From positions 5,038 through 69,037 of the forward strand of contig SVTV01000008.1 in assembly GCA_015063605.1 (NCBI GenBank): a DNA stretch of 64,000 nt. Direction: 5' to 3'. This stretch comes from Oscillospiraceae bacterium (GTDB lineage: Bacteria; Bacillota; Clostridia; Oscillospirales; SIG627). The notes under the pieces are model-generated. The model saw only the letters and a program-made list of their open reading frames with translations, did not search any database and had not been told where the DNA came from. Positions 3,720 to 57,373 of this stretch are shown here, piece after piece; position 1 is the stretch's first letter; the number at the start of each line of letters is the position of its first letter. A program made the position numbers and the translations under genes.

Positions 3720-4970
3720 ATGTCATCGTATAACGAGCTTATAAAAAATTTCGAGCGCACAAGAGCATATATGCGTGAGTTTTACGTTTACGGCTTTAAA
3801 AGCCGTGAAGAATACAACAAAAAAAGCGCACGGTCATACGACGATGAACGGCGGAGAATGGAAAGCTGGCTCGGCGATCACATGAGCTTTGTCCGTACTC
3901 CCGAGGGAAAAAGCGTTTTTATTTCCATAGACAGCCGTAATATATGCCACAATCCCTTTTATAAACCGTGGAAAGCCAAAAGCTTTACGGATCTTGATGT
4001 TACACTTCACTTTATTGTATTCGATATCCTTCATTCACCGGAAATATCAATGACGGTAAATGAAATTATGGACGTTATCGACGAAGAATATTTGTCGGGA
4101 TTTGATTCTCCCATTATGTTTGATGAATCTACCGTCAGAAAAAAGCTTAAGGAATATTCCGAAGCCGGTATTATTACCGTTGAAAAGATAGGACGGAGAT
4201 CGTATTACAGAAGAAGCGAAACCACGGACATCACCGAGCTTGATGATGCGATCCACTATTTTTCCGAGGTGTTGCCATGCGGAGTTATCGGCTCTTTCAT
4301 TCTCGATAAAACGGAAGCGGATTCGGATGCCTTCGGCTTCAAGCATCACTACATAACGAGTGCCATGGACAGTGGTGAGCTTGCGGAGCTTTTTACCGCC
4401 ATGCGGAAAAAGTGCGTTGTCACGGTATCCAATCTCAGCAGAAGAAAAAGCGAGCCGGAAAGATACAGACTCATTCCTTTGAGGATATTCATAAGCGTTC
4501 AGAACGGAAGACAGCATCTTATAGCCTACAATTCCGAGTATAACTGCATGTCCTCATACCGTATCGACTATCTTTCCGATGTCATAATAGAAGAGCCGAC
4601 GCCGAGATTTGACGAATTACGCTCCATGCTTTCCGATATGCAGGAAAATATGTGGGGTGTCAATGTCAGAAAGGGTAATGCGGAGCTTGAGCATATTGAA
4701 TTTACTGTCAGAGTAAATGAGGATGAGGAACATATAGTCAGACGTCTGGAAAGAGAAAAACGTGTCGGCAGGGTCGAAAAGATAGATGAAAACACATACA
4801 GATTTTCAGCCGATGTGTACGATACCAATGAAATGGTACCGTGGGTAAGGACATTTATCTGCAGGATCACACAGTTGAAGATCACAAACCGTGAGGTGGA
4901 AAAGAGATTCAAGGAGGATCTTGAAGAAATGTACCGTATGTACGGAGTTGACAAGGAGGAAACGGAATGA
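3720..4970 (+). CDS. WYL-domain-like putative transcriptional regulator (wHTH + WYL-like + C-terminal extension), partner A
   Basis: It has a winged-helix-like segment (TVNEIMDVIDEEY...STVRKKLKEYSEAGIITVEK). A WYL-like core follows (RYRLIPLRIFISVQNGRQHLIAYNSE...YRIDYLSDV). An RBS (GGGAGGGAAAGG) lies upstream. Confidence 0.55.
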   Translation: MSSYNELIKNFERTRAYMREFYVYGFKSREEYNKKSARSYDDERRRMESWLGDHMSFVRTPEGKSVFISIDSRNICHNPFYKPWKAKSFTDLDVTLHFIVFDILHSPEISMTVNEIMDVIDEEYLSGFDSPIMFDESTVRKKLKEYSEAGIITVEKIGRRSYYRRSETTDITELDDAIHYFSEVLPCGVIGSFILDKTEADSDAFGFKHHYITSAMDSGELAELFTAMRKKCVVTVSNLSRRKSEPERYRLIPLRIFISVQNGRQHLIAYNSEYNCMSSYRIDYLSDVIIEEPTPRFDELRSMLSDMQENMWGVNVRKGNAELEHIEFTVRVNEDEEHIVRRLEREKRVGRVEKIDENTYRFSADVYDTNEMVPWVRTFICRITQLKITNREVEKRFKEDLEEMYRMYGVDKEETE

Positions 4971-5878
4971 TATTCAGTGAGCTTTACTCCGCATATTACA
5001 ATACAATCGCCGCAATGATCTCAAAAATTATCGACGGCGAAAACTCCGACGAGGAGCTTCGGAGGGTAGTGGAGGAAAGAGCATTCGGAGAAAGTATACT
5101 TACTGTCATACCTTCTCTGAAGGCGGGAAAGTGGCAGCTTGTTCATCCCGATATGACCACCTCTCTCGTTCATAAGCCTACTATGCCCTTGACCGTTCTT
5201 CAGAAGCAATGGCTGAAGGCTGTGTCTCTTGATCCGAGAATAAAGCTTTTTGATATTTCTTTTCCCGATCTCGGTGATACGGAGCCTCTTTTTACTCCGG
5301 ATGATTATTACATATACGATAAGTACAGTGACGGAGACCCCTTTGAGGATGAAGAGTATATAAGGCAGTTCAGAGTTATTCTTGAGGCAATACGTAAAAA
5401 AACGCAGATAAGGTTTGAAATGGTGAACCGCAAGGGAAATACCGTATTCGTAAGATGCTATCCCAAAAGGCTTGAGTATTCCGAAAAGGATGATAAGTTC
5501 AGAGTGGTAACATCGGGCTGGCGATCTGTTTCAAGTGTAAATCTGTCGAAAATAAGAGCTTGCTTCCCGTATTTGGGCGAAAAGACCTTGGATAAGGATA
5601 TGCGTGAGACAGAGTACGATACCGCCGTCTTAAGAATTGATGATGAAAGAAATGCTCTTGAAAGAGTCATGCTTCATTTTGCCCATTTTGAGAAGCAGGC
5701 GGAAAAGATCGACGATAAAACTTACGTATTGAAAATAAAATACGCTCATGATGATGAGACGGAAATTGTGATACGTGTTCTTTCCTTCGGCCCCAGAGTA
5801 AAGGTCTTGGGCTCGGAATCATTTAAGGAAGCTGTAATTGAAAAAATAAGAAAACAGAAAAACTGCGGACTCAAATAA
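4967..5878 (+). CDS. WYL-domain-like putative regulator, partner B
   Basis: ATGA stop/start overlap with the upstream gene. The N-terminus MIFSELYSAYYNTIAAMI is typical of Firmicute paired WYL proteins. A WYL-like core is present (VFVRCYPKRLEYSEKDDKFRVVTSGWRSVSSVNLSKI). Confidence 0.55.
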   Translation: MIFSELYSAYYNTIAAMISKIIDGENSDEELRRVVEERAFGESILTVIPSLKAGKWQLVHPDMTTSLVHKPTMPLTVLQKQWLKAVSLDPRIKLFDISFPDLGDTEPLFTPDDYYIYDKYSDGDPFEDEEYIRQFRVILEAIRKKTQIRFEMVNRKGNTVFVRCYPKRLEYSEKDDKFRVVTSGWRSVSSVNLSKIRACFPYLGEKTLDKDMRETEYDTAVLRIDDERNALERVMLHFAHFEKQAEKIDDKTYVLKIKYAHDDETEIVIRVLSFGPRVKVLGSESFKEAVIEKIRKQKNCGLK

Positions 5879-5879
5879 G

Positions 5880-5930
5880 AGTTCGCAGCTTTTTTTCCGT
5901 GAAAAAAAGGAAATGGGATGGTAAAATATA
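5880..5930 (+). promoter_or_regulatory. promoter/operator copy 1: inverted repeat CTTTTTTTC-CGT-GAAAAAAAG over the -35 region, plus extended -10 TGgTAAAAT
   Basis: AGTTCGCAGCTTTTTTTCCGTGAAAAAAAGGAAATGGGATGGTAAAATATA. An almost identical 51-bp block recurs at 8061-8111. The -10 TAAAAT is at 5922-5927 and the TG at 5919-5920. Confidence 0.6.
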
Positions 5931-5936
5931 GGCACA

Positions 5937-6017
5937 AAGGCACAGACAGCAAAAGAATTAGACACAGGAGTCAGATTCCTTTGGTCGTCGGGTTTATAGC
6001 CCGGATAATGTGCCTTG
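5937..6017 (+). ncRNA. Y-RNA-like module 1
   Basis: Closing stem AAGGCACA (5937-5944) pairs with TGTGCCTT (6009-6016). ACAGCAA lies 1 nt after the 5' arm and the module ends in CTTG. An internal anticodon-arm-like hairpin sits at 5966-5980 (7-nt loop GTCAGAT), with a hairpin CGGG-TTTATAG-CCCG after it. Confidence 0.55.
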
Positions 6018-6021
6018 AAAA

Positions 6022-6099
6022 AAGACACAGACAGCAAGCTTCAGCACAAGACTTTTAATCTTGGAGGCTTGGGGCGTTTAGCTCGGATAGTGTGTCTTG
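6022..6099 (+). ncRNA. Y-RNA-like module 2
   Basis: Closing stem AAGACACA (6022-6029) pairs with TGTGTCTT (6091-6098). ACAGCAA is at 6031-6037 and the module ends in CTTG. An internal hairpin CAAGA-CTTTTAA-TCTTG lies at 6047-6063. Confidence 0.55.
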
Positions 6100-6103
6100 A
6101 AAT

Positions 6104-6174
6104 AGGTGCGTACAGCAATGTATACAGATCTATTACACCGCCGGCTGTCGGAAAAACAGCCAAAACGCACCTTG
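6104..6174 (+). ncRNA. Y-RNA-like module 3
   Basis: Closing stem AGGTGCGT (6104-6111) pairs with ACGCACCT (6165-6172). ACAGCAA follows immediately and the module ends in CTTG. An internal hairpin GGCTGT-CGGAAAA-ACAGCC is present. Confidence 0.5.
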
Positions 6175-6179
6175 TTATA

Positions 6180-6235
6180 AAGACTCAACCAGCAATTATT
6201 TGTTATTTACCGGATAGGCAGTAAAATGAGTCTTG
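6180..6235 (+). ncRNA. Y-RNA-like module 4 (short)
   Basis: Closing stem AAGACTCA (6180-6187) pairs with TGAGTCTT (6227-6234). The motif is the variant CCAGCAA and the module ends in CTTG. Confidence 0.45.
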
Positions 6236-6246
6236 TGAACAAAGAA

Positions 6247-6359
6247 AAGATGCCGACAGCAAACATACATAAGCTATTATTCGCTGCATAGCAGCAGCTG
6301 TTCTTTGTAAGCAGCCACGAACGGAGTGAAAGTCTTCGTATGAGTTAAGATGCATCTTG
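6247..6359 (+). ncRNA. Y-RNA-like module 5 (long)
   Basis: Closing stem AAGATGC (6247-6253) pairs with GCATCTT (6352-6358). ACAGCAA is at 6256-6262 and the module ends in CTTG. Several internal hairpins are present (GCTGC-ATA-GCAGC, GCTG..CAGC). Confidence 0.45.
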
Positions 6360-6361
6360 TG

Positions 6362-6459
6362 AAGGCACTAACAGCAATTTATGAATAGTTTAGTGGTTAA
6401 AGCAGAGGATGTTGAGATCCTCGTACGCAAGTTCGAATCTTGCATCAAACAGTGCCTTG
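6362..6459 (+). ncRNA. YrlA-like Y RNA module 6 with tRNA-like domain
   Basis: Closing stem AAGGCACT (6362-6369) pairs with AGTGCCTT (6451-6458), with ACAGCAA at 6371-6377. The D arm is GTTT-AGTGGTTA-AAGC (6388-6403). The T arm is GCAAG-TTCGAAT-CTTGC (6427-6443). The anticodon arm is aberrant (6-nt loop) and the acceptor-like helix is imperfect. Confidence 0.7.
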
Positions 6460-6495
6460 TATTTATTAATAACATCATGAAAAGGAGTGAGTTTC

Positions 6496-7953
6496 ATGTT
6501 AGAATACTTAAAGAAAGAAGATAATAAGACCGTTACCGAAAACGGCGCTTCAACATACATATCGACAGAGTCGGAATGTCTCGACCTGTTCGCAACCATC
6601 GGTGCCTTGCGCCGTGAAAGCGACAACGAAATAGAAACACGCTTTATACGTGCGTTCAGCGAAAACAGAGATATCGCGATGAAGCTCCTGTTTTTCGCAA
6701 GAGATATCAGAGGAGGTCTCGGCGAGCGCCGTGTGTTCAAGGTGATCCTTAATTGGCTTGCAAAGAACGAGCCTCAAACGGTACGTAAAAACATAGAATA
6801 CGTTGCCGAGTACGGAAGATTTGACGATCTTCTCGTTCTCATGGGTACTTCCTTGGAAAAGGATATGCTCGATGCTTTGAAAAAGCAGTTTCAAGCCGAT
6901 ACGGAAGCCCTTGAAAAGGGCGGAGAAGTATCGCTTCTCGGAAAGTGGCTGCCCTCGGTGAACGCATCAAACAAAACAACAGTTAAATATGCTAAAAGAA
7001 TAGCAAAGCACTTCGGTATGAATGAAGCAAGCTACAGAAAGGCACTTGTTGCCCTTCGCAGCCGCATCAGAATAATCGAAAATAATCTCCGTGAGAAGGA
7101 TTATACCTTTGACTACTCAAAGCAACCCTCAAAGGCTATGCTCAAATACCGTAAGGCATTTGCCCGTAACGATGCCGAAAGATACAGAGCATTTCTTGAT
7201 AAGGTGCTTTCGGGTGAAGCGAAGCTCAATACAGGCACATTGATGCCTTATGAGCTTATCAGACCCATTATCCGCGGGAACGCGGGCGAGGAGGAAAGAA
7301 AGGCTTTGAACGCTTCCTGGATATCTCAGGAGGATCTCGGCAGCGGTGAAAATTCCCTTGCCGTGATCGACGGCTCCGGCTCAATGTACGGCTGGGGCGA
7401 GCCTATGCCCGCAACGGTGGCTCTTTCCCTCGGCATCTACTTTGCCGAGAGAAACAAAGGTGCTTTCGGAAATCACTTCATCACCTTCTCGGAGAATCCC
7501 CGTCTCGTTGAAATAAAGGGAGAAGACATTTTCGAAAAGGTGCGCTATTGCGCTTCCTTCAACGAAATAGCAAACACAAATATTCAAAAGGTGTTTGAGC
7601 TTATCCTTGATACGGCAAAAAAGAATTCCGTACCCGATGAAGAGCTTCCCCGTAAGCTTTACATCATTTCCGATATGGAATTTGACAGCTGTGCCGAGGA
7701 TGCCTCGATGACAAATTTTGAATATGCAAAGAAGATCTTTGCGGAAGCGGGATACACTCTTCCCGAGATCGTTTTCTGGAACGTGGCAAGCCGTAACAGG
7801 CAGCAGCCCGTAACAAAGAATGAGCAGGGTGTTGCCCTTGTATCCGGATGTACTCCCCGTCTGTTCACCATGGCGGCAAACGGCACGATGGAGCCTTATG
7901 CATTTATGCTTGAGGTCATCGAGAGCGAGAGATACGCAAAGATAACCGCATGA
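6496..7953 (+). CDS. Ro60-like TROVE/vWA protein of the DUF2828 type
   Basis: The N-terminal motif TVTENGASTYISTESECLDLF and GKWLPS match my recollection of DUF2828/TROVE-like proteins. The C-terminal vWA domain has the MIDAS motif VIDGSGSM. ATG 6496 with RBS AAAGGAG 8 nt upstream is preferred over the listed GTG 6487. Confidence 0.7.
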   Translation: MLEYLKKEDNKTVTENGASTYISTESECLDLFATIGALRRESDNEIETRFIRAFSENRDIAMKLLFFARDIRGGLGERRVFKVILNWLAKNEPQTVRKNIEYVAEYGRFDDLLVLMGTSLEKDMLDALKKQFQADTEALEKGGEVSLLGKWLPSVNASNKTTVKYAKRIAKHFGMNEASYRKALVALRSRIRIIENNLREKDYTFDYSKQPSKAMLKYRKAFARNDAERYRAFLDKVLSGEAKLNTGTLMPYELIRPIIRGNAGEEERKALNASWISQEDLGSGENSLAVIDGSGSMYGWGEPMPATVALSLGIYFAERNKGAFGNHFITFSENPRLVEIKGEDIFEKVRYCASFNEIANTNIQKVFELILDTAKKNSVPDEELPRKLYIISDMEFDSCAEDASMTNFEYAKKIFAEAGYTLPEIVFWNVASRNRQQPVTKNEQGVALVSGCTPRLFTMAANGTMEPYAFMLEVIESERYAKITA

Positions 7954-8060: not shown

Positions 8061-8111
8061 AGTTCGCAGGTTTTTTTCCGTGAAAAAAATAAAGCATGAT
8101 GGTAAAATATA
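8061..8111 (+). promoter_or_regulatory. promoter/operator copy 2 (same element as 5880-5930)
   Basis: AGTTCGCAGGTTTTTTTCCGTGAAAAAAATAAAGCATGATGGTAAAATATA. The -10 TAAAAT is at 8103-8108 with an upstream TG. Confidence 0.6.
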
Positions 8112-25286: not shown

Positions 25287-25659
25287 ATAACCGCACGGTG
25301 CGGTCGCGCGCAGAGGACGAAAGCAATCTGTGTGAGGAAAGTCCGGGCTTCACAGGGCATGGATAGTGGGTAACGCCCACCGAAGGCGACTTTAGGGAAA
25401 GTGCAACAGAGATATACCGCCGCATGAAAATGCGGTAAGGGTGGAAAGGCGAGGTAAGAGCTCACCGGCATCTGCGGGGACGCAGGTGTCCTGTAAACCC
25501 TATCCGAAAGCAACACCGTATAAAAGGCGGCAGACGAAAGTCTGCAATGTTTGCCCGACAGCCTTAAAGGTGGCATGAAGCTTGCGGCGACGTAAGCTCA
25601 AGACAGATGATCGCAGTCGTTTTATAACGGCACAGAACCCGGCTTACAAGTGCGGTTAT
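25287..25659 (+). ncRNA. rnpB: RNase P RNA (bacterial, class-A-like)
   Basis: The P1 helix pairs TAACCGCAC with GTGCGGTTA. Universal blocks are present: GAGGAAAGTCCGGGC, GGTAACGCC, GGAAAGTGCAACAGA, ATACCGCC, AGACAGATGAT and ACAGAACCCGGCTTA. Confidence 0.9.
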
Positions 25660-25746
25660 GTTATTACATTTAAGATTCGTGTATTCGGTACGGTAAAGTC
25701 GGTTATGCATTCCGACACAAAAAAGTAAAATTAAGGAGTAACGGCT

Positions 25747-39405: not shown

Positions 39406-40671
39406 ATGACAAACAAAACCAACGGAAGAATAGAATTTACAAAGGAAATGAAAAAGACACATAAGATCCTGTTTCCAAATATGTGTAATATTCATTTCAA
39501 AATATTAAGGAATATTTTTGCCGAATTCGGATATAACGTAGAGCTTTTGGAAAACGATGATGATTCCGTCATCGAAACGGGGCTTAAGTACGTTCATAAC
39601 GATACGTGCTATCCCGCACTCGTTACGATAGGTCAGATGATCTCCGCTCTTGAAAGCGGAAAATACGACCTTGACAGAACGGCTCTCGCTATGACTCAAA
39701 CGGGCGGAGGATGCAGAGCATCGAATTACATCCACCTTCTCAGAAAGGCTTTGAAAAAGGCAGGTCTCGGTAATATCCCCGTCATATCCTTGAATATATC
39801 GGGACTTGAGAAGAACAGCGGCTTTAAAATAACACTGCCCCTTCTCAGAAGAGCACTTGCGGCTGTTACATACGGTGATATGCTTATGCTTCTGAGCAAT
39901 CAGACAGAGCCTTATGAAGTCACTTGCGGTGAAACGAAATCACTTACCGATAAGTGGATAGCGGATATTTCCGATATGTTCAAGCGTAAGGAAGGCTACC
40001 GTACGGAGGAGATCAAAAGCTGTCTTTCACAGATAGTTGAATCTTTTTCGTGCATCAAAACAGAAAAAAGAGATAAGGTACGTGTCGGCATAGTGGGAGA
40101 GATATTCGTAAAGTATTCCGCTACGGCAAACAACAATCTTGAAAGGTTCCTTAAGGAGCAGGGATGCGAGGTAATGGTTCCCGGACTTTTAGGGTTCCTT
40201 CTCTTCAAGGTGGATAACAGAATAGAGGATATCAAGCTTTACGGCGGAAATATCATCAAAAAAGCGGGATGCGGTATATTGCTTGATTTCTTCTCGAAGT
40301 ATGAGGAATATATTGCCGAAGCCTTGAGAAACAGCAAGAGCGGTAAGTTTGTTATTCCCTCAAGCTACGCTCACTTGAAGGAGCTTATCGGACCCGTTCT
40401 CGGCAGAGGCTGTAAAATGGGGGAGGGGTGGCTTCTTACTGCGGAAATGATGGAGCTTATCGAGCTGGGATATGGTAATATCGTATGTACTCAGCCCTTC
40501 GGATGCCTCCCGAACCATATAGTCGGGAAAGGTATGATAAGAAAATTAAGCGAAATGTACCCCGAAGCAAATATTGTTCCTATCGATTACGACCCGGGCG
40601 CAACGAAGGTGAATCAGGAAAACAGGATAAAGTTAATGCTATCGGTGGCAAGAGAAAAGTCCGAAAAGTGA
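39406..40671 (+). CDS. 2-hydroxyacyl-CoA dehydratase-family / activase-associated protein
   Basis: HNDTCYPA, TQTGGGCRASNY and CTQPFGCLPNH motifs are typical of the dehydratase-related component D family. Confidence 0.7.
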   Translation: MTNKTNGRIEFTKEMKKTHKILFPNMCNIHFKILRNIFAEFGYNVELLENDDDSVIETGLKYVHNDTCYPALVTIGQMISALESGKYDLDRTALAMTQTGGGCRASNYIHLLRKALKKAGLGNIPVISLNISGLEKNSGFKITLPLLRRALAAVTYGDMLMLLSNQTEPYEVTCGETKSLTDKWIADISDMFKRKEGYRTEEIKSCLSQIVESFSCIKTEKRDKVRVGIVGEIFVKYSATANNNLERFLKEQGCEVMVPGLLGFLLFKVDNRIEDIKLYGGNIIKKAGCGILLDFFSKYEEYIAEALRNSKSGKFVIPSSYAHLKELIGPVLGRGCKMGEGWLLTAEMMELIELGYGNIVCTQPFGCLPNHIVGKGMIRKLSEMYPEANIVPIDYDPGATKVNQENRIKLMLSVAREKSEK

Positions 40672-40688
40672 CTTTTCGGACTTTTCTC
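40658..40688 (+). terminator. hairpin terminator overlapping the stop codon
   Basis: AGTCCGAAAAGT-g-ACTTTTCGGACT palindrome followed by TTTT(C)T. Confidence 0.65.
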
Positions 40689-41056
40689 ATAAAGTTTACA
40701 CTTGCCTGCCAAAAGCAGGGCAGGCATTTTGCACACGCAAAAGCGTGCAAACTTTCCGATAGATCAGATTTACGGGTTTTCTCATAAAGTTTGCACTTGC
40801 CTGCCAAAAGCAGGGCAGGCATTTTGCATACGCAAAAGCGTGCAAACTTTCCGATAGATCAGATTTATGGGTTTTCTCATAAAGTTTGCACTTTGCTGTC
40901 AAAAAGTCTGACAGCAATTTTGCATACGCAAAAGCGTGCAAACTTTCCGATAGATCAGATTTACGGGTTTTCCCATAAAGTTTACACTTTGCTGTCAAAA
41001 AGTCCGACAGCAATTTTGCATACGCAAAAGCGTGCAAACTTCCGGTTAGTGCACTT
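40682..41056 (+). repeat. four tandem ~95-96-bp structured direct repeats
   Basis: Units start at 40682, 40777, 40872 and 40968 (TTTTCTCATAAAGTTTGCAC...). Each contains a hairpin plus TTTT and a conserved block TTTTGCATACGCAAAAGCGTGCAAACTTTCCGATAGATCAGATTTACGGG. Confidence 0.9.
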
Positions 41057-54874: not shown

Positions 54875-57373
54875 ATGTCAATCCTTTTTAAATGTAAAAT
54901 GTGCAACGGTAACCTTGAAATAGCAGAAGGTATCACCGTTACGGAATGTGATTATTGCGGTACAAAGCAAACAGTACCGAAAGCTATTGATGAAAATTTG
55001 CAAAATCTTTTCAATAGAGCCAATACTCTGCGTATCAAGAGCGAATTTGACAAAGCGGAAGAGCTTTATGAAAAGATAGTACAAGCAGATACAACGCAAT
55101 CGGAAGCGTATTGGGGGCTTATCCTCTGCAAATACGGTATAGAATACGTGGATGATCCCGCAACATTCAAAAAGATCCCCACATGCCATAGGGCTTCATA
55201 TGAATCAATAATTGCCGATGATGATTACAAATCGGCACTTGAAAACGCCGATTTAAGTCAGCGTGCCGTTTATGAGGAACAAGCAAAGGAGATCGACAGA
55301 ATACAAAAGGAAATCCTTGCTCTTGCACAAAAAGAAGAAACTTACGATGTATTTATCTGCTACAAGGAGACGGATTCCGACGGTCACAGAACGCAGGACA
55401 GCGTAATTGCAAACGATATTTATTATCAGCTTACAAATGAAGGATTCAAAGTTTTCTATGCCGCAATAACTCTTGAAGGAAAGTTAGGTTCAGCTTATGA
55501 ACCTATCATCTTTGCTGCGCTCAATTCCGCAAAGGTAATGCTTTCCATTGGTACAAAGCCAGAATATTTCAACGCTGTTTGGGTCAAAAACGAATGGTCA
55601 AGATATTTGAAGATAATCAAGAATGACCGTTCAAAGCTTCTTATTCCGTGCTACCGCGATATGGATGCATATGAGCTTCCCGAAGAGTTTGCACATCTCC
55701 AAGCGCAGGATATGGCGAAGATAGGTTTTGTCAATGATATTATTCGCGGTATCAAAAAGGTAATTAAATCCGATGAACCGAAAGCAACAGTAATTAAGGA
55801 AACGGTTGTTTCCGAAAGCAATACCAACACCGCACCCCTTTTGAAGCGCGCCTTCATGTTCCTTGAAGACGGAGAGTTTGATAAGGCAGATGATTTCTGC
55901 GAGCAGGTCCTCAACCAAGACCCGGAATGTGCCGAGGCATATTTGGGTAAATTGATGGCAGAGCTGAATGTAAAAGCAAGAGAATCTCTTAAAAACTGCA
56001 GTGAGCCTTTTGACAGTAAAAACAATTATTCAAAGGCTATGCGCTTCGGAAATGAAGCCTTGAAAAAAGAGCTTGAAGCGTGCATTGAGCATATCAAAGC
56101 AAGAAACGAAAATAAGCGAATAGAAGGAATATACAACGCCGCAGTCAAAGCAATGAATTCCGCAAAAAGTATGTCAGATTATAGAAAAGCAATATCGTTA
56201 TTTTCTGAGATAGATTATAAGGATTCAAAGGACTTGAGAGAGAAATGTATTTCGGAGATGCAAGAATTTTCAATTAAAAAGAAAGAATTGTCAAAAATTA
56301 TTGAAAAAATCCAGATTAAAAATTCTCAAATAAGTATTTCTGCCGGAACGGATTTTTCAGTGGGGTTGTTATCCAATGGGAGAGTTGTCACGAACTTTGA
56401 TACAGGGCTGTATTCTCGCGAGCGCGACTTTTCGAAGTGGTCGCAAATAATTGCTATTTCCACGTATTATCATACTGTGGGATTGAGATTGGATGGAATG
56501 GTTGTTGCTCATGGTTTGAACTGCTACGGTGAATGTTACGTTATGGGATGGACAGATATTGTTTCTGTTTCTGCGGGCGAAAGACATACAGTTGGATTGA
56601 AATCAGATGGAACTGTTATTGCAACAAAATATCTTGATGGCAATGGTTATGGCTACGACGGTCAATGTGATGTTTCAGAGTGGTCGGATATTATTGCTGT
56701 TTCTGCAGGGAGTCATCACACGGTAGGTTTGATTTATAACGGAAGAGTAATAGCTGTTGGTGGGAATAATTTTAGACAATGTAATGTTTTGAGATGGTCG
56801 GATATTATGGCTGTATCTGCTGGTAGCTATCACACCGTAGGATTAAAAACCGATGGAACGGTTGTTGCTGTTGGTAGAAACGAAAACGGTCAATGTAATG
56901 TTAACGGATGGTCGGATATTATTGCTGTATCTGCAGGAGGAAATCATACCGTAGGATTGAAAGCCGATGGAACGGTTGTTGCCGTTGGAGGGAACGAATG
57001 CGAGCAATGCGAAGTGAGCGAGTGGGCTAATATTGTTGCTGTATCTGCAGGAGGAGGTCATACCGTAGGGTTGAAATCTGATGGTACGGTTATTGCTGTT
57101 GGTAGAAACGAAAGGAGGCAATGCGAAGTGAGCGAGTGGGCTAATATTGCGCTTCCGATTAAAGCAGAAACAAGAGCTGAATATATATCCATGAGATATG
57201 AAATCATGAAACGGAGCCTGCAAAAGCAACAAAGAATGCAAGAGCAGCAAAGAATGCAAGAGCAGCAAAGAATGCAGTATAGAAACGCAGGCGTGTGTCA
57301 GTATTGTGGCGGTAGGTTTAAAGGCATGTTTTCTAAAATTTGTGTAAAATGCGGCAAAAAGAAAGATTATTAA
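54875..57373 (+). CDS. multidomain protein: N-terminal zinc ribbon, TPR-like helices, TIR-like domain, TPR-like linker, seven RCC1-like beta-propeller blades, Q-rich repeat, C-terminal zinc ribbon
   Basis: The N-terminal ribbon is CKMC..CDYC (aa 7-28). The TIR-like core is YDVFICYKETD...AVWVKNEWSRY (aa ~156-295; nt ~55340-55759). Seven repeats of (W)SDI(I)AVSAG..HTVGLK.DGTV.AVG span aa ~487-758. QQRMQE occurs 3 times. The final ribbon is CQYC..CVKC. Confidence 0.75.
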   Translation: MSILFKCKMCNGNLEIAEGITVTECDYCGTKQTVPKAIDENLQNLFNRANTLRIKSEFDKAEELYEKIVQADTTQSEAYWGLILCKYGIEYVDDPATFKKIPTCHRASYESIIADDDYKSALENADLSQRAVYEEQAKEIDRIQKEILALAQKEETYDVFICYKETDSDGHRTQDSVIANDIYYQLTNEGFKVFYAAITLEGKLGSAYEPIIFAALNSAKVMLSIGTKPEYFNAVWVKNEWSRYLKIIKNDRSKLLIPCYRDMDAYELPEEFAHLQAQDMAKIGFVNDIIRGIKKVIKSDEPKATVIKETVVSESNTNTAPLLKRAFMFLEDGEFDKADDFCEQVLNQDPECAEAYLGKLMAELNVKARESLKNCSEPFDSKNNYSKAMRFGNEALKKELEACIEHIKARNENKRIEGIYNAAVKAMNSAKSMSDYRKAISLFSEIDYKDSKDLREKCISEMQEFSIKKKELSKIIEKIQIKNSQISISAGTDFSVGLLSNGRVVTNFDTGLYSRERDFSKWSQIIAISTYYHTVGLRLDGMVVAHGLNCYGECYVMGWTDIVSVSAGERHTVGLKSDGTVIATKYLDGNGYGYDGQCDVSEWSDIIAVSAGSHHTVGLIYNGRVIAVGGNNFRQCNVLRWSDIMAVSAGSYHTVGLKTDGTVVAVGRNENGQCNVNGWSDIIAVSAGGNHTVGLKADGTVVAVGGNECEQCEVSEWANIVAVSAGGGHTVGLKSDGTVIAVGRNERRQCEVSEWANIALPIKAETRAEYISMRYEIMKRSLQKQQRMQEQQRMQEQQRMQYRNAGVCQYCGGRFKGMFSKICVKCGKKKDY

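What the first reader, a model, noticed from the sequence alone, without database searches (positions are those of the whole stretch)
5937..6459. Six tandem Y-RNA-like modules sharing a covarying closing stem and ACAGCAA/CTTG signature; the last one is YrlA-like with a tRNA-like domain
Seen in sequence: six consecutive modules of 56-113 nt have the same frame, 5'-(A)AG-N4-5-[0-2 nt]-ACAGCAA ... N4-5'-CTT-G-3'. The stems are AAGGCACA/TGTGCCTT, AAGACACA/TGTGTCTT, AGGTGCGT/ACGCACCT, AAGACTCA/TGAGTCTT (with CCAGCAA), AAGATGC/GCATCTT and AAGGCACT/AGTGCCTT. The variable stem positions change in a fully compensatory way while ACAGCAA and CTTG stay fixed. That pattern fits a protein-binding helix rather than coding sequence. 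The interiors differ. Modules 1 and 2 carry anticodon-arm-like hairpins with 7-nt loops. Modules 1, 2 and 4 share CGGATA(A/G), directly before the 3' arm in modules 1 and 2 and internal in module 4. Module 6 has near-canonical D (GTTT-AGTGGTTA-AAGC) and T (GCAAG-TTCGAAT-CTTGC) arms. Established knowledge: Y RNAs are defined by a conserved stem formed by the 5' and 3' ends that binds Ro60, and bacterial YrlA has a tRNA-like module. Inference: this is an array of Y-like RNAs for the adjacent Ro-like DUF2828-type protein, transcribed from the promoter at 5880-5930 and probably processed from a polycistronic precursor. Six modules in tandem is more than I recall for described bacterial loci, which have one to a few.
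Basis: partly seen in the sequence, partly recalled or inferred. Interest (0 to 1): 0.85.

Follow-up and report, generated by a model that had tools for sequence, protein, structure and literature searches.

The report
Y-like RNA array for Ro-like protein
Six small structured RNAs, several mimicking tRNA, sit in a row before a gene for a Ro60-shaped protein and an RNA ligase; the same RNA "handle" accompanies that protein family in many gut bacteria and in ten of twelve sampled cultivated phages, and I found no description of it.

Summary
Window 5937-6459 (+) holds six back-to-back modules. Each is closed by a 7-8 bp helix whose 5' arm starts exactly 10 nt before an invariant CAGCAA, and each 3' arm ends ...CTT followed by G.

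In 80 related genomes I found 335 such modules, 1-12 per locus. Almost all lie just upstream of the DUF2828 homologue, on the same strand, and the helix covaries strongly. The same frame, with lineage-specific arms, flanks DUF2828 genes in 10 of 12 cultivated phages sampled, often inside tRNA gene arrays.

The DUF2828 protein models with high confidence as a Ro60 fold: a helical ring plus a vWA domain. The conserved cassette is WYL regulator pair, RNA array, DUF2828, RtcB.

Module 6 is a covariation-supported cloverleaf in canonical D-anticodon-T order. Module 5 is a second, degenerate tRNA-like class. Modules 1 and 2 carry anticodon-arm-like hairpins.

These RNAs fail the YrlA and Y RNA sequence and topology criteria, and no Rfam family covers them. 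Best reading: functional analogues of Y RNAs for a Ro60 paralogue in a tRNA/RNA-repair system. Binding and processing are inferred, not shown. Six modules is ordinary within this family.

The parts
3720..4970 (+). WYL-domain regulator, first of a pair (HTH-WYL-WCX, PafB/PafC-like architecture)
   Evidence: Pfam WYL and WCX. PADLOC WYL 8.6e-15. Present next to the array in 66 of 80 related loci.
4967..5878 (+). Second WYL/WCX regulator, overlapping the first by 4 nt
   Evidence: Pfam WCX. PADLOC WYL 2.2e-9. Present in 68 of 80 loci.
5863..5897 (+). Terminator-like hairpin and T-tract ending the regulator genes
   Evidence: 10-bp stem, 6 G-C pairs, followed by CTTTTTTTCC.
5899..5927 (+). Promoter-like site GTGAAA-17-TAAAAT with TG extension; the predicted start falls at about the first base of module 1
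   Evidence: Consensus scan, 9 of 12 matches with TG. Consensus-level evidence only.
5937..6017 (+). Module 1: handle AAGGCACA/TGTGCCTT plus GACAGCAA. Cargo is an anticodon-arm-like hairpin (AGGA-GTCAGAT-TCCT) and a T-arm-like hairpin (CGGG-TTTATAG-CCCG).
   Evidence: Three homologues (L005, L016, L017), with one compensatory change in the first hairpin.
6022..6099 (+). Module 2: handle AAGACACA/TGTGTCTT. Cargo includes the hairpin CAAGA-CTTTTAA-TCTTG, a Lys(UUU)-type anticodon loop.
   Evidence: Minimum-energy fold. The same loop occurs in a 5-member module cluster in other loci. No sequence homologue of the whole module was found.
6103..6174 (+). Module 3: handle (T)AGGTGCGT/ACGCACCT(T), 8 bp, with a terminal T-T mismatch. 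Cargo is unique.
6180..6235 (+). Module 4: handle AAGACTCA/TGAGTCTT, motif CCAGCAA. It is the smallest module and its cargo is unique.
6247..6359 (+). Module 5: handle AAGATGC/GCATCTT. Cargo is a degenerate cloverleaf (class II): acceptor-like helix, 5-bp arm with ATA loop, 6-bp arm with 7-nt loop CTTTGTA, and a T-like arm with loop TGAAAGT.
   Evidence: Model R2 scores it 90.9 bits and finds 48 relatives. Handle, acceptor-like and T-like helices are 92-100% paired with many compensatory changes. The other two arms are inconclusive.
6362..6459 (+). Module 6: handle AAGGCACT/AGTGCCTT. Cargo is a near-canonical tRNA cloverleaf (class I) in D-anticodon-T order, with the acceptor reduced to 3-4 bp and an atypical 8-nt anticodon loop.
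   Evidence: Rfam tRNA 34.5 bits at 6379-6451. Model R1 scores it 92.8 bits, with 43 members in 42 loci. 96.5% of cells are paired and 19 of 25 pairs have compensatory changes.
6496..7953 (+). Ro60-fold protein (DUF2828 + DUF7788; PHROG 850 'RNA-binding protein'), 485 aa, with the MIDAS motif D292-G-S-G-S296
   Evidence: Pfam and PHROG, 3e-134. AlphaFold2 pLDDT 93.6. The 12 best Foldseek PDB matches are all Ro60/TROVE entries (1yvr E 4.7e-10, TM 0.62). Homologues are 485 aa, so the start is the ATG at 6496.
8096..8410 (+). 104-aa ORF with no family match; it belongs to an insertion that is uncommon in related loci
   Evidence: Found in only 3 of 80 loci.
8549..9670 (+). SPFH/Band 7 protein; an uncommon insertion between the Ro-like gene and rtcB
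   Evidence: Pfam Band_7 5.9e-31. Found in 2 of 80 loci. Also follows the distant homologue in L081.
9667..10875 (+). RtcB RNA ligase
   Evidence: Pfam RtcB 9.5e-58. PHROG 'tRNA splicing ligase' 2.7e-128. Present in 62 of 80 loci, usually directly after the Ro-like gene.

Best explanation
The region encodes a polycistronic array of six small non-coding RNAs built on one plan.

Each has a constant handle: a terminal 7-9 bp helix formed by the 5' and 3' ends, followed directly on the 5' strand by a single-stranded (A)CAGCAA in an internal loop. Each also has a variable cargo domain.

The handle is most likely the binding site for the co-encoded Ro60-fold protein (DUF2828/DUF7788). That would make these RNAs functional analogues of Y RNAs for a Ro60 paralogue.

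The cargo domains are tRNA mimics of graded completeness. Module 6 is a full cloverleaf, module 5 a degenerate cloverleaf, and modules 1 and 2 carry anticodon-arm-like hairpins.

The RNP would act with the RtcB ligase, under a WYL regulator pair, in surveillance or repair of damaged tRNA or RNA. The tRNA-like cargo would tether tRNA-acting partners or gate access to the protein ring, as Y RNAs do for Ro60.

Shown here: the RNA family and its structure, its tight linkage to the protein family across bacteria and phages, and the predicted protein fold.
Inferred: protein binding, processing into separate RNAs (probably by the tRNA-processing machinery) and the biological role.
For: 1. RNA family. 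335 modules occur in 80 of 81 loci. The fixed frame is AAGRYRCNNA-CAGCAA ... GYRYCTT-G.

2. Location and strand. The pattern AAGRYRCNNNCAGCAA occurs 256 times within 3 kb upstream of the DUF2828 gene on its strand. It occurs 5 times elsewhere on that strand and never on the opposite strand, in 947 kb.

3. The helix is real.
- 90% of true arms have an anchored Watson-Crick complement of at least 7 bp. For arms swapped among modules the figure is 21%.
- On 148 distinct sequences, 97.4% of cells are paired and all 8 pairs show compensatory changes. No shuffle of 500 reaches the observed pairing or covariation score. Slid controls give 27-55%.

4. tRNA-like cargo. Class I has 96.5% of cells paired and 19 of 25 pairs compensatory. 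Class II is supported in three of its five helices.

5. Protein. The model has pLDDT 93.6, and the 12 best PDB matches are all Ro60/TROVE entries over the full length.

6. Co-occurrence across wide divergence.
- About 55 of 120 viral contigs carry modules, and 18 of these have a 25-45% identical DUF2828 homologue in the held stretch, on the same strand and next to the modules in the cases examined.
- 10 of 12 cultivated phages from different host phyla have modules next to the gene on the same strand. Their arms are lineage-specific, but the spacing and CAGCAA are the same.

7. Autonomy of modules. In phages, single modules sit between tRNA genes.

8. Synteny. The order is WYL pair, array, DUF2828, RtcB.

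9. Architectural parallel. Published Y RNA-like RNAs have a 5'-3' stem flanking an internal bulge that holds a short motif, CGAA (PMC12135203; PMC4201824).
Against: - There are no expression, end-mapping or binding data for any member.
- The Y RNA and YrlA sequence motifs are absent, and no Rfam Y RNA hit appears even at E<=10.
- The protein has no sequence-level match to Ro60 in the PDB and no Pfam TROVE hit. Only the predicted fold links them, at 12% identity.
- Two of 12 sampled phages (Vibrio nt-1, Erwinia pEa_SNUABM_12) show no module within 4 kb of the gene.
- Many viral stretches with modules hold no DUF2828 gene in the DNA I could see.
- Linkage would also be expected if the RNAs were substrates or regulators rather than stable partners.
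Confidence: 0.72

Rival explanations
1. The array is a cis-acting leader of the DUF2828-rtcB mRNA. The protein, or another factor, binds the repeated handles to autoregulate translation or stability, and no free small RNAs are made.
For: No terminator lies between the array and the ATG at 6496. The last module ends 36 nt before it. In most bacterial loci the array lies directly upstream of the gene.
Against: In several phages the modules lie downstream of the gene (Faith1, Staphylococcus S-CoN_Ph2, Felix O1-like) or singly between tRNA genes far from it. Copy number ranges from 1 to 12. The cargo domains are conserved, covarying tRNA-like folds, which a simple operator would not need.
Confidence: 0.1
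2. The modules are mainly tRNA decoys, sensors or RtcB substrates. They would be baits for anticodon nucleases whose cleavage is sensed by the WYL regulators, or RNAs whose juxtaposed ends are ligated or circularised by RtcB. The handle would be a processing or ligation signal rather than a Ro-protein site.
For: Anticodon-type 7-nt loops recur: Phe GAA and Met CAU in class I, and Lys UUU in m2 and a 5-member cluster. RtcB is linked in 62 of 80 loci. Phage copies sit in tRNA arrays. Genuine-looking tRNA-Phe genes sit inside related arrays. Damaged tRNA fragments are the known inducer of the Salmonella rtc operon (PMC7790460).
Against: The invariant feature tracks DUF2828, not RtcB. No RtcB hit appeared in any viral-contig stretch holding modules. 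Of the cultivated phages examined, only Listeria AG20 has an annotated RtcB within 4 kb of the gene. m3 and m4 have no tRNA-like feature. The window's own m6 has an atypical 8-nt loop. This reading is compatible with, rather than exclusive of, protein binding.
Confidence: 0.13
3. The array consists of decaying tRNA pseudogenes or a selfish repeat with no function of its own.
For: Several modules are recognisably tRNA-derived. Relatives hold real tRNA-Phe genes in the array.
Against: The handle and CAGCAA are maintained across proteins only 25-80% identical, in several bacterial and phage lineages. Pairs are kept by compensatory change rather than by sequence identity. Placement is strictly strand-specific.
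Confidence: 0.02

Closest known systems
Bacterial YrlA/YrlB Y RNAs with Rsr (Ro60) in the Salmonella rsr-yrlBA-rtcBA operon (Chen et al. 2014, PMC4201824; Hughes et al. 2020, PMC7790460)
   Same: Small RNAs are encoded beside, and on the same strand as, a Ro60-fold protein in an RtcB operon. A terminal 5'-3' stem lies next to a short conserved single-stranded motif. At least one RNA per locus mimics tRNA.
   Different: - The motif is (A)CAGCAA at a fixed 10-nt offset, not GNCGAAN0-1G.
- The tRNA-like domain runs in canonical D-anticodon-T order, with the handle extending the acceptor. YrlA is permuted (T, stem-loop, D).
- The protein is DUF2828/DUF7788, not Pfam TROVE.
- The regulator is a WYL pair, not sigma-54 RtcR. 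No RtcA was found among the ORFs I scanned (1-14 kb).
- Arrays hold up to 12 modules.
Metazoan and Deinococcus Y RNAs with Ro60/Rsr (RYPER complex with PNPase)
   Same: Modular logic: a protein-binding stem plus a variable effector-binding domain. The protein is a ring-shaped HEAT-repeat plus vWA fold.
   Different: There is no GGUCCGA bulged helix and no Rfam Y_RNA match. No link to PNPase is evident. The genes are polycistronic with an mRNA.
Thermus phage phiLo Ro60 with Yrl1/Yrl2 (PMC12135203)
   Same: A phage-encoded Ro60-fold protein has Y-like RNAs encoded next to its gene. The stem-bulge-stem plan includes a short motif in the bulge.
   Different: The phiLo RNAs carry CGAA. Its protein (9kop, 9l5y) is only a fold-level match to the window protein, at about 15% identity.
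tRNA (Rfam RF00005)
   Same: Module 6 and 42 relatives have D, anticodon and T arms with tRNA-type conserved bases (U8-A9, the GG in the D loop, TTCGAAT).
   Different: The acceptor stem is cut to 3 bp and opens into the CAGCAA loop and handle. There is no free acceptor end or CCA, and ARAGORN rejects the window copy.

Membership tests
Bacterial YrlA Y RNA (Chen et al. 2014) | Encoded within 4 kb of, and on the same strand as, a Ro60 orthologue | tested here: inconclusive
   The array ends 36 nt upstream of, and on the same strand as, a protein with a Ro60 fold. That protein is a DUF2828 paralogue with no Pfam TROVE hit.
Bacterial YrlA Y RNA (Chen et al. 2014) | GNCGAAN0-1G motif near the 5' end | tested here: not met
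   The pattern does not occur in 5937-6460. The only two CGAA occurrences are internal, in m5 and in the m6 T loop.
Bacterial YrlA Y RNA (Chen et al. 2014) | tRNA-like domain in permuted order: T arm, closed 'acceptor' stem-loop, D arm | tested here: not met
   Module 6 and 42 relatives run D, anticodon, T. A permuted version on the same handle type does exist in mycobacteriophage Faith1.
Bacterial YrlA Y RNA (Chen et al. 2014) | tRNA-type modifications, RNase P cleavage and CCA addition | not testable with these tools
   These features need experiments.
Metazoan-type Y RNA (Rfam Y_RNA) | Conserved bulged lower stem containing GGUCCGA, and a match to the covariance model | tested here: not met
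   There is no GGTCCGA. No Y RNA family was reported at E<=10.
Metazoan-type Y RNA (Rfam Y_RNA) | Terminal stem formed by the 5' and 3' ends | tested here: met
   Handle helix: 97.4% of cells paired, and all 8 pairs show compensatory changes.
tRNA (RF00005) | Cloverleaf scoring above the gathering threshold | tested here: met
   34.5 bits against a threshold of 29, at 6379-6451.
tRNA (RF00005) | 7-bp acceptor stem with a free 3' end, and a 7-nt anticodon loop | tested here: not met
   Only 4 of 7 acceptor pairs form, and only 3 bp are conserved in relatives. The window copy has an 8-nt loop. ARAGORN makes no call.
Ro60 / TROVE protein | HEAT-repeat ring plus vWA domain with a MIDAS motif | tested here: met
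   Model pLDDT is 93.6. The 12 best PDB matches are all Ro60/TROVE entries, with TM up to 0.63. DGSGS lies at 292-296 and is invariant or nearly so. This rests on a predicted structure.
Ro60 / TROVE protein | Sequence membership (Pfam TROVE, or similarity to solved Ro60) | tested here: not met
   Pfam reports only DUF2828 and DUF7788. A profile search of PDB sequences finds no Ro60.
Rtc RNA-repair operon (rtcBA with RtcR) | RtcB ligase in the operon | tested here: met
Rtc RNA-repair operon (rtcBA with RtcR) | RtcA cyclase and the sigma-54 activator RtcR | tested here: not met
   Neither is among the ORFs scanned at 1-14 kb. Two WYL/WCX proteins sit in the regulator position instead.

The most novel reading that the evidence does not exclude
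The CAGCAA-handle RNAs are the general, so far unrecognised RNA partners of the whole DUF2828 'Ro-like RNA-binding protein' family. That family appears in 711 cultivated phage genomes and in many gut Clostridia. On this reading the handle is a universal adaptor that lets the protein display interchangeable tRNA or anticodon-arm mimics. These would act as baits, sensors or guides in the conflict over tRNA cleavage. Phages would use them to protect or repair their tRNA pools against host anticodon nucleases. Bacteria would couple them to RtcB under WYL control.
Probability: 0.3. Interest if true: 0.9.

Novelty: new variant of a known kind. Interest (0 to 1): 0.8.

Why it matters
Ro60-Y RNA particles are conserved from bacteria to humans and are clinically important autoantigens. 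Their bacterial biology rests on a few species and one RNA type.

This locus points to a second, larger branch: a Ro60-fold paralogue with its own RNA signature. The protein family has homologues in 711 cultivated phage genomes (Felix O1-like, Listeria A511/P100-like, Tsamsa-like, cluster L mycobacteriophages and others). The modules themselves were found in 10 of the 12 phages sampled and in gut Oscillospiraceae and Lachnospiraceae.

It offers a simple sequence rule for finding the RNAs: a helix, then CAGCAA 10 nt from the helix start. It shows that tRNA mimicry was attached to the same handle in at least two different topologies. It places the system inside tRNA gene arrays and RtcB operons.

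That makes an open question directly testable in tractable phages and in cultured strains: what do Ro-like proteins and tRNA-like RNAs do in RNA repair and in phage-host conflict?

Tried and rejected
- **Rfam.** Gathering and E<=10 scans of the window, and scans of 12 related loci, gave only tRNA hits on the tRNA-like modules. Membership of any curated family other than tRNA is rejected.
- **YrlA and Y RNA motifs.** Both are absent.
- **ARAGORN.** No tRNA is called in the window.
- **Sequence search of the protein against PDB chains.** No Ro60 match. Only the fold search linked them.
- **PADLOC and NCBIfam.** No defence-system or named family for the DUF2828 protein.
- **RNAalifold on a MAFFT alignment of the module 5 class.** It failed to recover the interior, so a hand-drawn structure and covariance-model realignment were needed. 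The D-like and anticodon-like arms stayed inconclusive.
- **Literature.** Eight searches and several papers gave no description of an RNA partner for DUF2828. Burroughs & Aravind 2016 and Sim et al. 2020 are not held in the library and could not be checked.
- **Supplements of Chen et al. 2014.** They are not held. I could not see whether any DUF2828 phage was in their list.
- **First module detector.** It allowed G-U pairs and 6-bp arms and was too permissive on background. It was replaced by an anchored Watson-Crick test with swapped-arm controls.
- **Viral pattern scan.** It returned many chance single hits, and only about 55 of 120 stretches held bona fide modules.
- **Shared CGGATA.** Rejected as a motif because it is not conserved in homologues.
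Full report
**1. The observation**

Window 5937-6459 (+ strand) contains six contiguous modules:
- m1 5937-6017
- m2 6022-6099
- m3 6103-6174
- m4 6180-6235
- m5 6247-6359
- m6 6362-6459

Each module begins with a 7-8 nt arm and ends with its exact Watson-Crick complement followed by G. Each carries (A/C)CAGCAA just after the 5' arm.

Helix position 1 is always 10 nt before the C of CAGCAA. After the +1 G, spacers between modules are only AAAA, AAA, TTATA, TGAACAAAGAA and TG.

Six of the 17 + strand CAGCAA sites in the 64-kb window lie in this 523-nt stretch. None of the others has an AAG.../...CTTG arm pair.

Single modules fold better than shuffled controls, with z from -2.4 to -4.1; m5 is the exception at -1.1. 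In a fold of the whole array, the handles of m2-m5 form locally. The almost identical arms of m1 and m6 cross-pair in the energy model.

Rfam reports only a tRNA match to m6 (34.5 bits; gathering score 29) and nothing else even at E<=10. ARAGORN calls no tRNA.

**2. Genomic context**

The gene order is:
- Mfd, then a PHP-domain protein
- two overlapping WYL/WCX regulators (3720-4970 and 4967-5878)
- a terminator-like hairpin (5863-5888 plus T-tract)
- a promoter-like site with an extended -10 (5899-5927), which places the transcript start at about the first base of m1
- the RNA array, with no terminator after it
- a 485-aa DUF2828/DUF7788 protein (ATG at 6496)
- a 104-aa ORF
- an SPFH/Band 7 protein
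- RtcB

**3. The protein**

Sequence searches give DUF2828 + DUF7788 and PHROG 850 'RNA-binding protein' at 3e-134. There is no Pfam TROVE hit and no sequence match to solved Ro60.

An AlphaFold2 model built on a 67-sequence alignment is confident (pLDDT 93.6, pTM 0.92). Its 12 best Foldseek matches in the PDB are all Ro60/TROVE entries over the full length:
- Xenopus 1yvr, 1yvp and 2i91
- human 9nep, 9nf8 and 9nfa
- Deinococcus Rsr 2nvo
- Thermus phage phiLo 9kop and 9l5y

The best E-value is 4.7e-10 and TM reaches 0.63, at about 12% identity. The next matches are vWA/MIDAS domains. The MIDAS-type DGSGS at 292-296 is invariant or nearly so.

**4. Comparative evidence for the RNA family**

A scan of one genome per species returned 80 loci whose DUF2828 homologue is 63-80% identical. 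They come from Oscillospiraceae, other Clostridia, Lachnospiraceae and Christensenellales, and include cultured strains.

Using the fixed frame I found 335 modules in 80 of 81 loci. The one empty locus has only 11 nt of upstream sequence. Loci hold 1-12 modules, with a median of 4, and 22 loci hold six or more.

The consensus is a-AAG-R-Y-R-C-N-N-A-CAGCAA ... G-Y-R-Y-C-T-T-G.

Tests that do not presuppose pairing:
- The pattern AAGRYRCNNNCAGCAA occurs 256 times within 3 kb upstream of the gene on its strand, 5 times elsewhere on that strand and never on the other strand, in 947 kb.
- 90% of true arms have an anchored Watson-Crick complement of at least 7 bp within 230 nt. For arms swapped between modules the figure is 21%. 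That control is inflated because neighbouring modules share arms.

On a model-based alignment of 148 distinct sequences:
- The handle helix is 97.4% paired.
- All eight pairs show compensatory changes, in 151 cells.
- No shuffle of 500 reaches the observed pairing or covariation score.
- Slid controls give 27-55% pairing.

**5. Cargo domains**

Clustering of module interiors gave the following:
- m6 belongs to a family of 46 modules in 44 loci.
- m5 belongs to a family of 20.
- m1 has three homologues.
- m2, m3 and m4 have none at the sequence level.

*Class I (m6).* A covariance model finds 43 full members in 42 loci. The proposed structure is the handle, a 3-bp acceptor remnant, then D, anticodon and T arms. 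It is 96.5% paired with compensatory changes in 19 of 25 pairs. No shuffle of 500 reaches it, and slid controls give 35-46%.

These are close tRNA mimics. They have U8-A9, a GG-containing D loop, TTCGAAT T loops and 7-nt anticodon loops, mostly CTGAAAA (Phe type) or TTCATAC (Met type). They run in canonical order. The acceptor opens into the CAGCAA loop and the handle, so there is no free acceptor end. The window's copy has an atypical 8-nt loop.

*Class II (m5).* A second model finds 48 members. The handle (100% paired), the acceptor-like helix (92%) and the T-like arm (94%) are well supported. The D-like and anticodon-like arms reach only about 61%, probably from register differences in the alignment. 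I count those two arms as inconclusive.

*Modules 1 and 2.* m1 has an anticodon-arm-like hairpin with a 7-nt loop, supported by one compensatory change among its four homologues, plus a T-arm-like hairpin. m2 has a CAAGA-CTTTTAA-TCTTG hairpin whose loop recurs in a five-member cluster elsewhere.

*Real tRNAs in related arrays.* Many close relatives carry a genuine-looking tRNA-Phe(GAA) gene inside the array, just before the last module. The window does not.

**6. Synteny**

The WYL pair is present in 66-68 of the 80 loci and RtcB in 62 of 80. RtcB usually lies directly after the DUF2828 gene. In a few loci it lies between the regulators and that gene, with modules before both. The SPFH protein and the 104-aa ORF are rare insertions.

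**7. Phages**

*Viral contigs.* An exact-pattern scan of viral contigs returned 120 stretches. About 55 hold bona fide modules, 1-8 each, many from contigs of 50-400 kb. Eighteen of these stretches contain a DUF2828 homologue at 25-45% identity. It lies on the same strand next to the modules in the cases I examined.

In the large phages the modules are interspersed, on the same strand, among big tRNA gene arrays. In L099 the DUF2828 gene itself is embedded in the tRNA array.

*Cultivated phages.* The protein has homologues in 711 of 50,697 cultivated phage genomes. I fetched 12 from different host groups. Ten have modules with the same spacing and CAGCAA directly beside the gene on its strand, with lineage-specific arms:
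- Bacillus phage Tsamsa
- Listeria phage AG20 (arms AGGAATC and similar)
- Mycobacterium phage Faith1 (arms TGGACGC and similar)
- Felix O1-like UAB_Phi87 (arms AGACCNN)
- Campylobacter phage Los1
- Enterococcus phage VRE9_4
- Staphylococcus phage S-CoN_Ph2
- Synechococcus phage B3
- Sinorhizobium phage phiM19
- Prevotella phage Lak-A1

Vibrio nt-1 and Erwinia pEa_SNUABM_12 showed none within 4 kb.

None of these elements is annotated in the records. Rfam finds only tRNAs there.

One Faith1 module carries a T arm, then a stem-loop, then a D arm. That is the YrlA-type permuted tRNA mimic, on the CAGCAA handle. Two different tRNA-mimic topologies have therefore been joined to the same handle.

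**8. Interpretation**

Three elements persist across proteins 25-99% identical and across phages of several host phyla: the helix, the 10-nt offset and the CAGCAA. The arm sequences drift by compensatory change and the cargo is swapped freely. This is the signature of a protein-recognition element.

Its only constant genomic companion is the Ro60-fold protein. The layout matches published Y RNA-like RNAs, which have a 5'-3' stem next to an internal bulge holding a short motif, CGAA.

I therefore read these as Y RNA analogues for a Ro60 paralogue. They would act with RtcB, and in phages within tRNA operons, on damaged or misfolded tRNA or RNA.

The following are inferences:
- that the protein binds the handle;
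- that the modules are released as separate RNAs. This is plausible because phage modules stand alone between tRNAs, and because the handle with its +1 G resembles an acceptor helix with a discriminator base;
- the biological role.

**9. Comparison with known families**

The RNAs work like Y RNAs and YrlA but fail their membership tests. They lack GNCGAAN0-1G and GGUCCGA. The tRNA-like domain in the window is not permuted. No Rfam family matches. The protein is not a Pfam TROVE member. The operon lacks RtcR, and no RtcA was found among the scanned ORFs.

In the library available I found no paper describing an RNA partner for DUF2828. [quoted passage not shown] Two key reviews could not be read, so prior mention cannot be excluded.

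**10. Verdict**

I class it as a new variant of a known kind. It is a widespread, apparently undescribed Y-like RNA family with a simple signature. I score interest at 0.8.

Noticed in passing
window 40682-41041: A 96-nt tandem repeat, 3.8 copies, 93% matches, directly after the gene ending at 40671. A single unit folds far better than shuffles on either strand (z about -4). No Rfam match was reported there.
   Followed up: partly
window 56663-57148: Repeats with a 114-nt period, 3-4 copies, 76-82% matches. They may be a protein-coding repeat.
   Followed up: no
window 25288-25662 (+): Bacterial RNase P RNA class A, 258.9 bits. It is an ordinary housekeeping gene.
   Followed up: no
L120 5852-6477 (-), viral contig IMGVR_UViG_3300018495_000082: A full-length ROOL RNA (RF03087, 323 bits) lies inside a phage tRNA array of 21 tRNAs that also holds eight CAGCAA-handle modules. 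A partial OLE-model hit at 187-276 scores just above its threshold (52.9 vs 50) and looks doubtful.
   Followed up: no
L001 5796-5871, L003 1170-1245, L004 5771-5846, L006 12-87, L011 509-584, L016 5789-5864, L025 5797-5872, L061 5794-5869, L063 5592-5667: A genuine-looking 76-nt tRNA-Phe(GAA) gene sits inside the RNA array, just before the last (Phe-type tRNA-like) module, in many close relatives. The window lacks it.
   Followed up: partly
L204 5521-5643 (Mycobacterium phage Faith1, downstream of gene 55): A 122-nt module on a CAGCAA handle has a T arm, then a stem-loop, then a D arm. That is the permuted YrlA-type tRNA mimic, unlike the canonical order seen in the Clostridia.
   Followed up: partly
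window 8096-9670; also L010, L062, L025, L081: A 104-aa ORF and an SPFH/Band 7 gene are inserted between the Ro-like gene and rtcB in the window and a few relatives only. A Band 7 gene also follows the 40%-identical homologue in L081.
   Followed up: partly
window 5937-5944 and 6362-6369, with 6009-6016 and 6451-6458: The arms of modules 1 and 6 differ at one position only. An energy-based fold of the whole array therefore cross-pairs them, enclosing modules 2-5 in a long-range helix. Whether this alternative pairing ever forms is unknown.
   Followed up: no
L143 13681-14089 (-), viral contig IMGVR_UViG_3300018878_000419: A phage-encoded tmRNA lies at the end of a 16-tRNA array, in a contig that also carries handle modules.
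   Followed up: no
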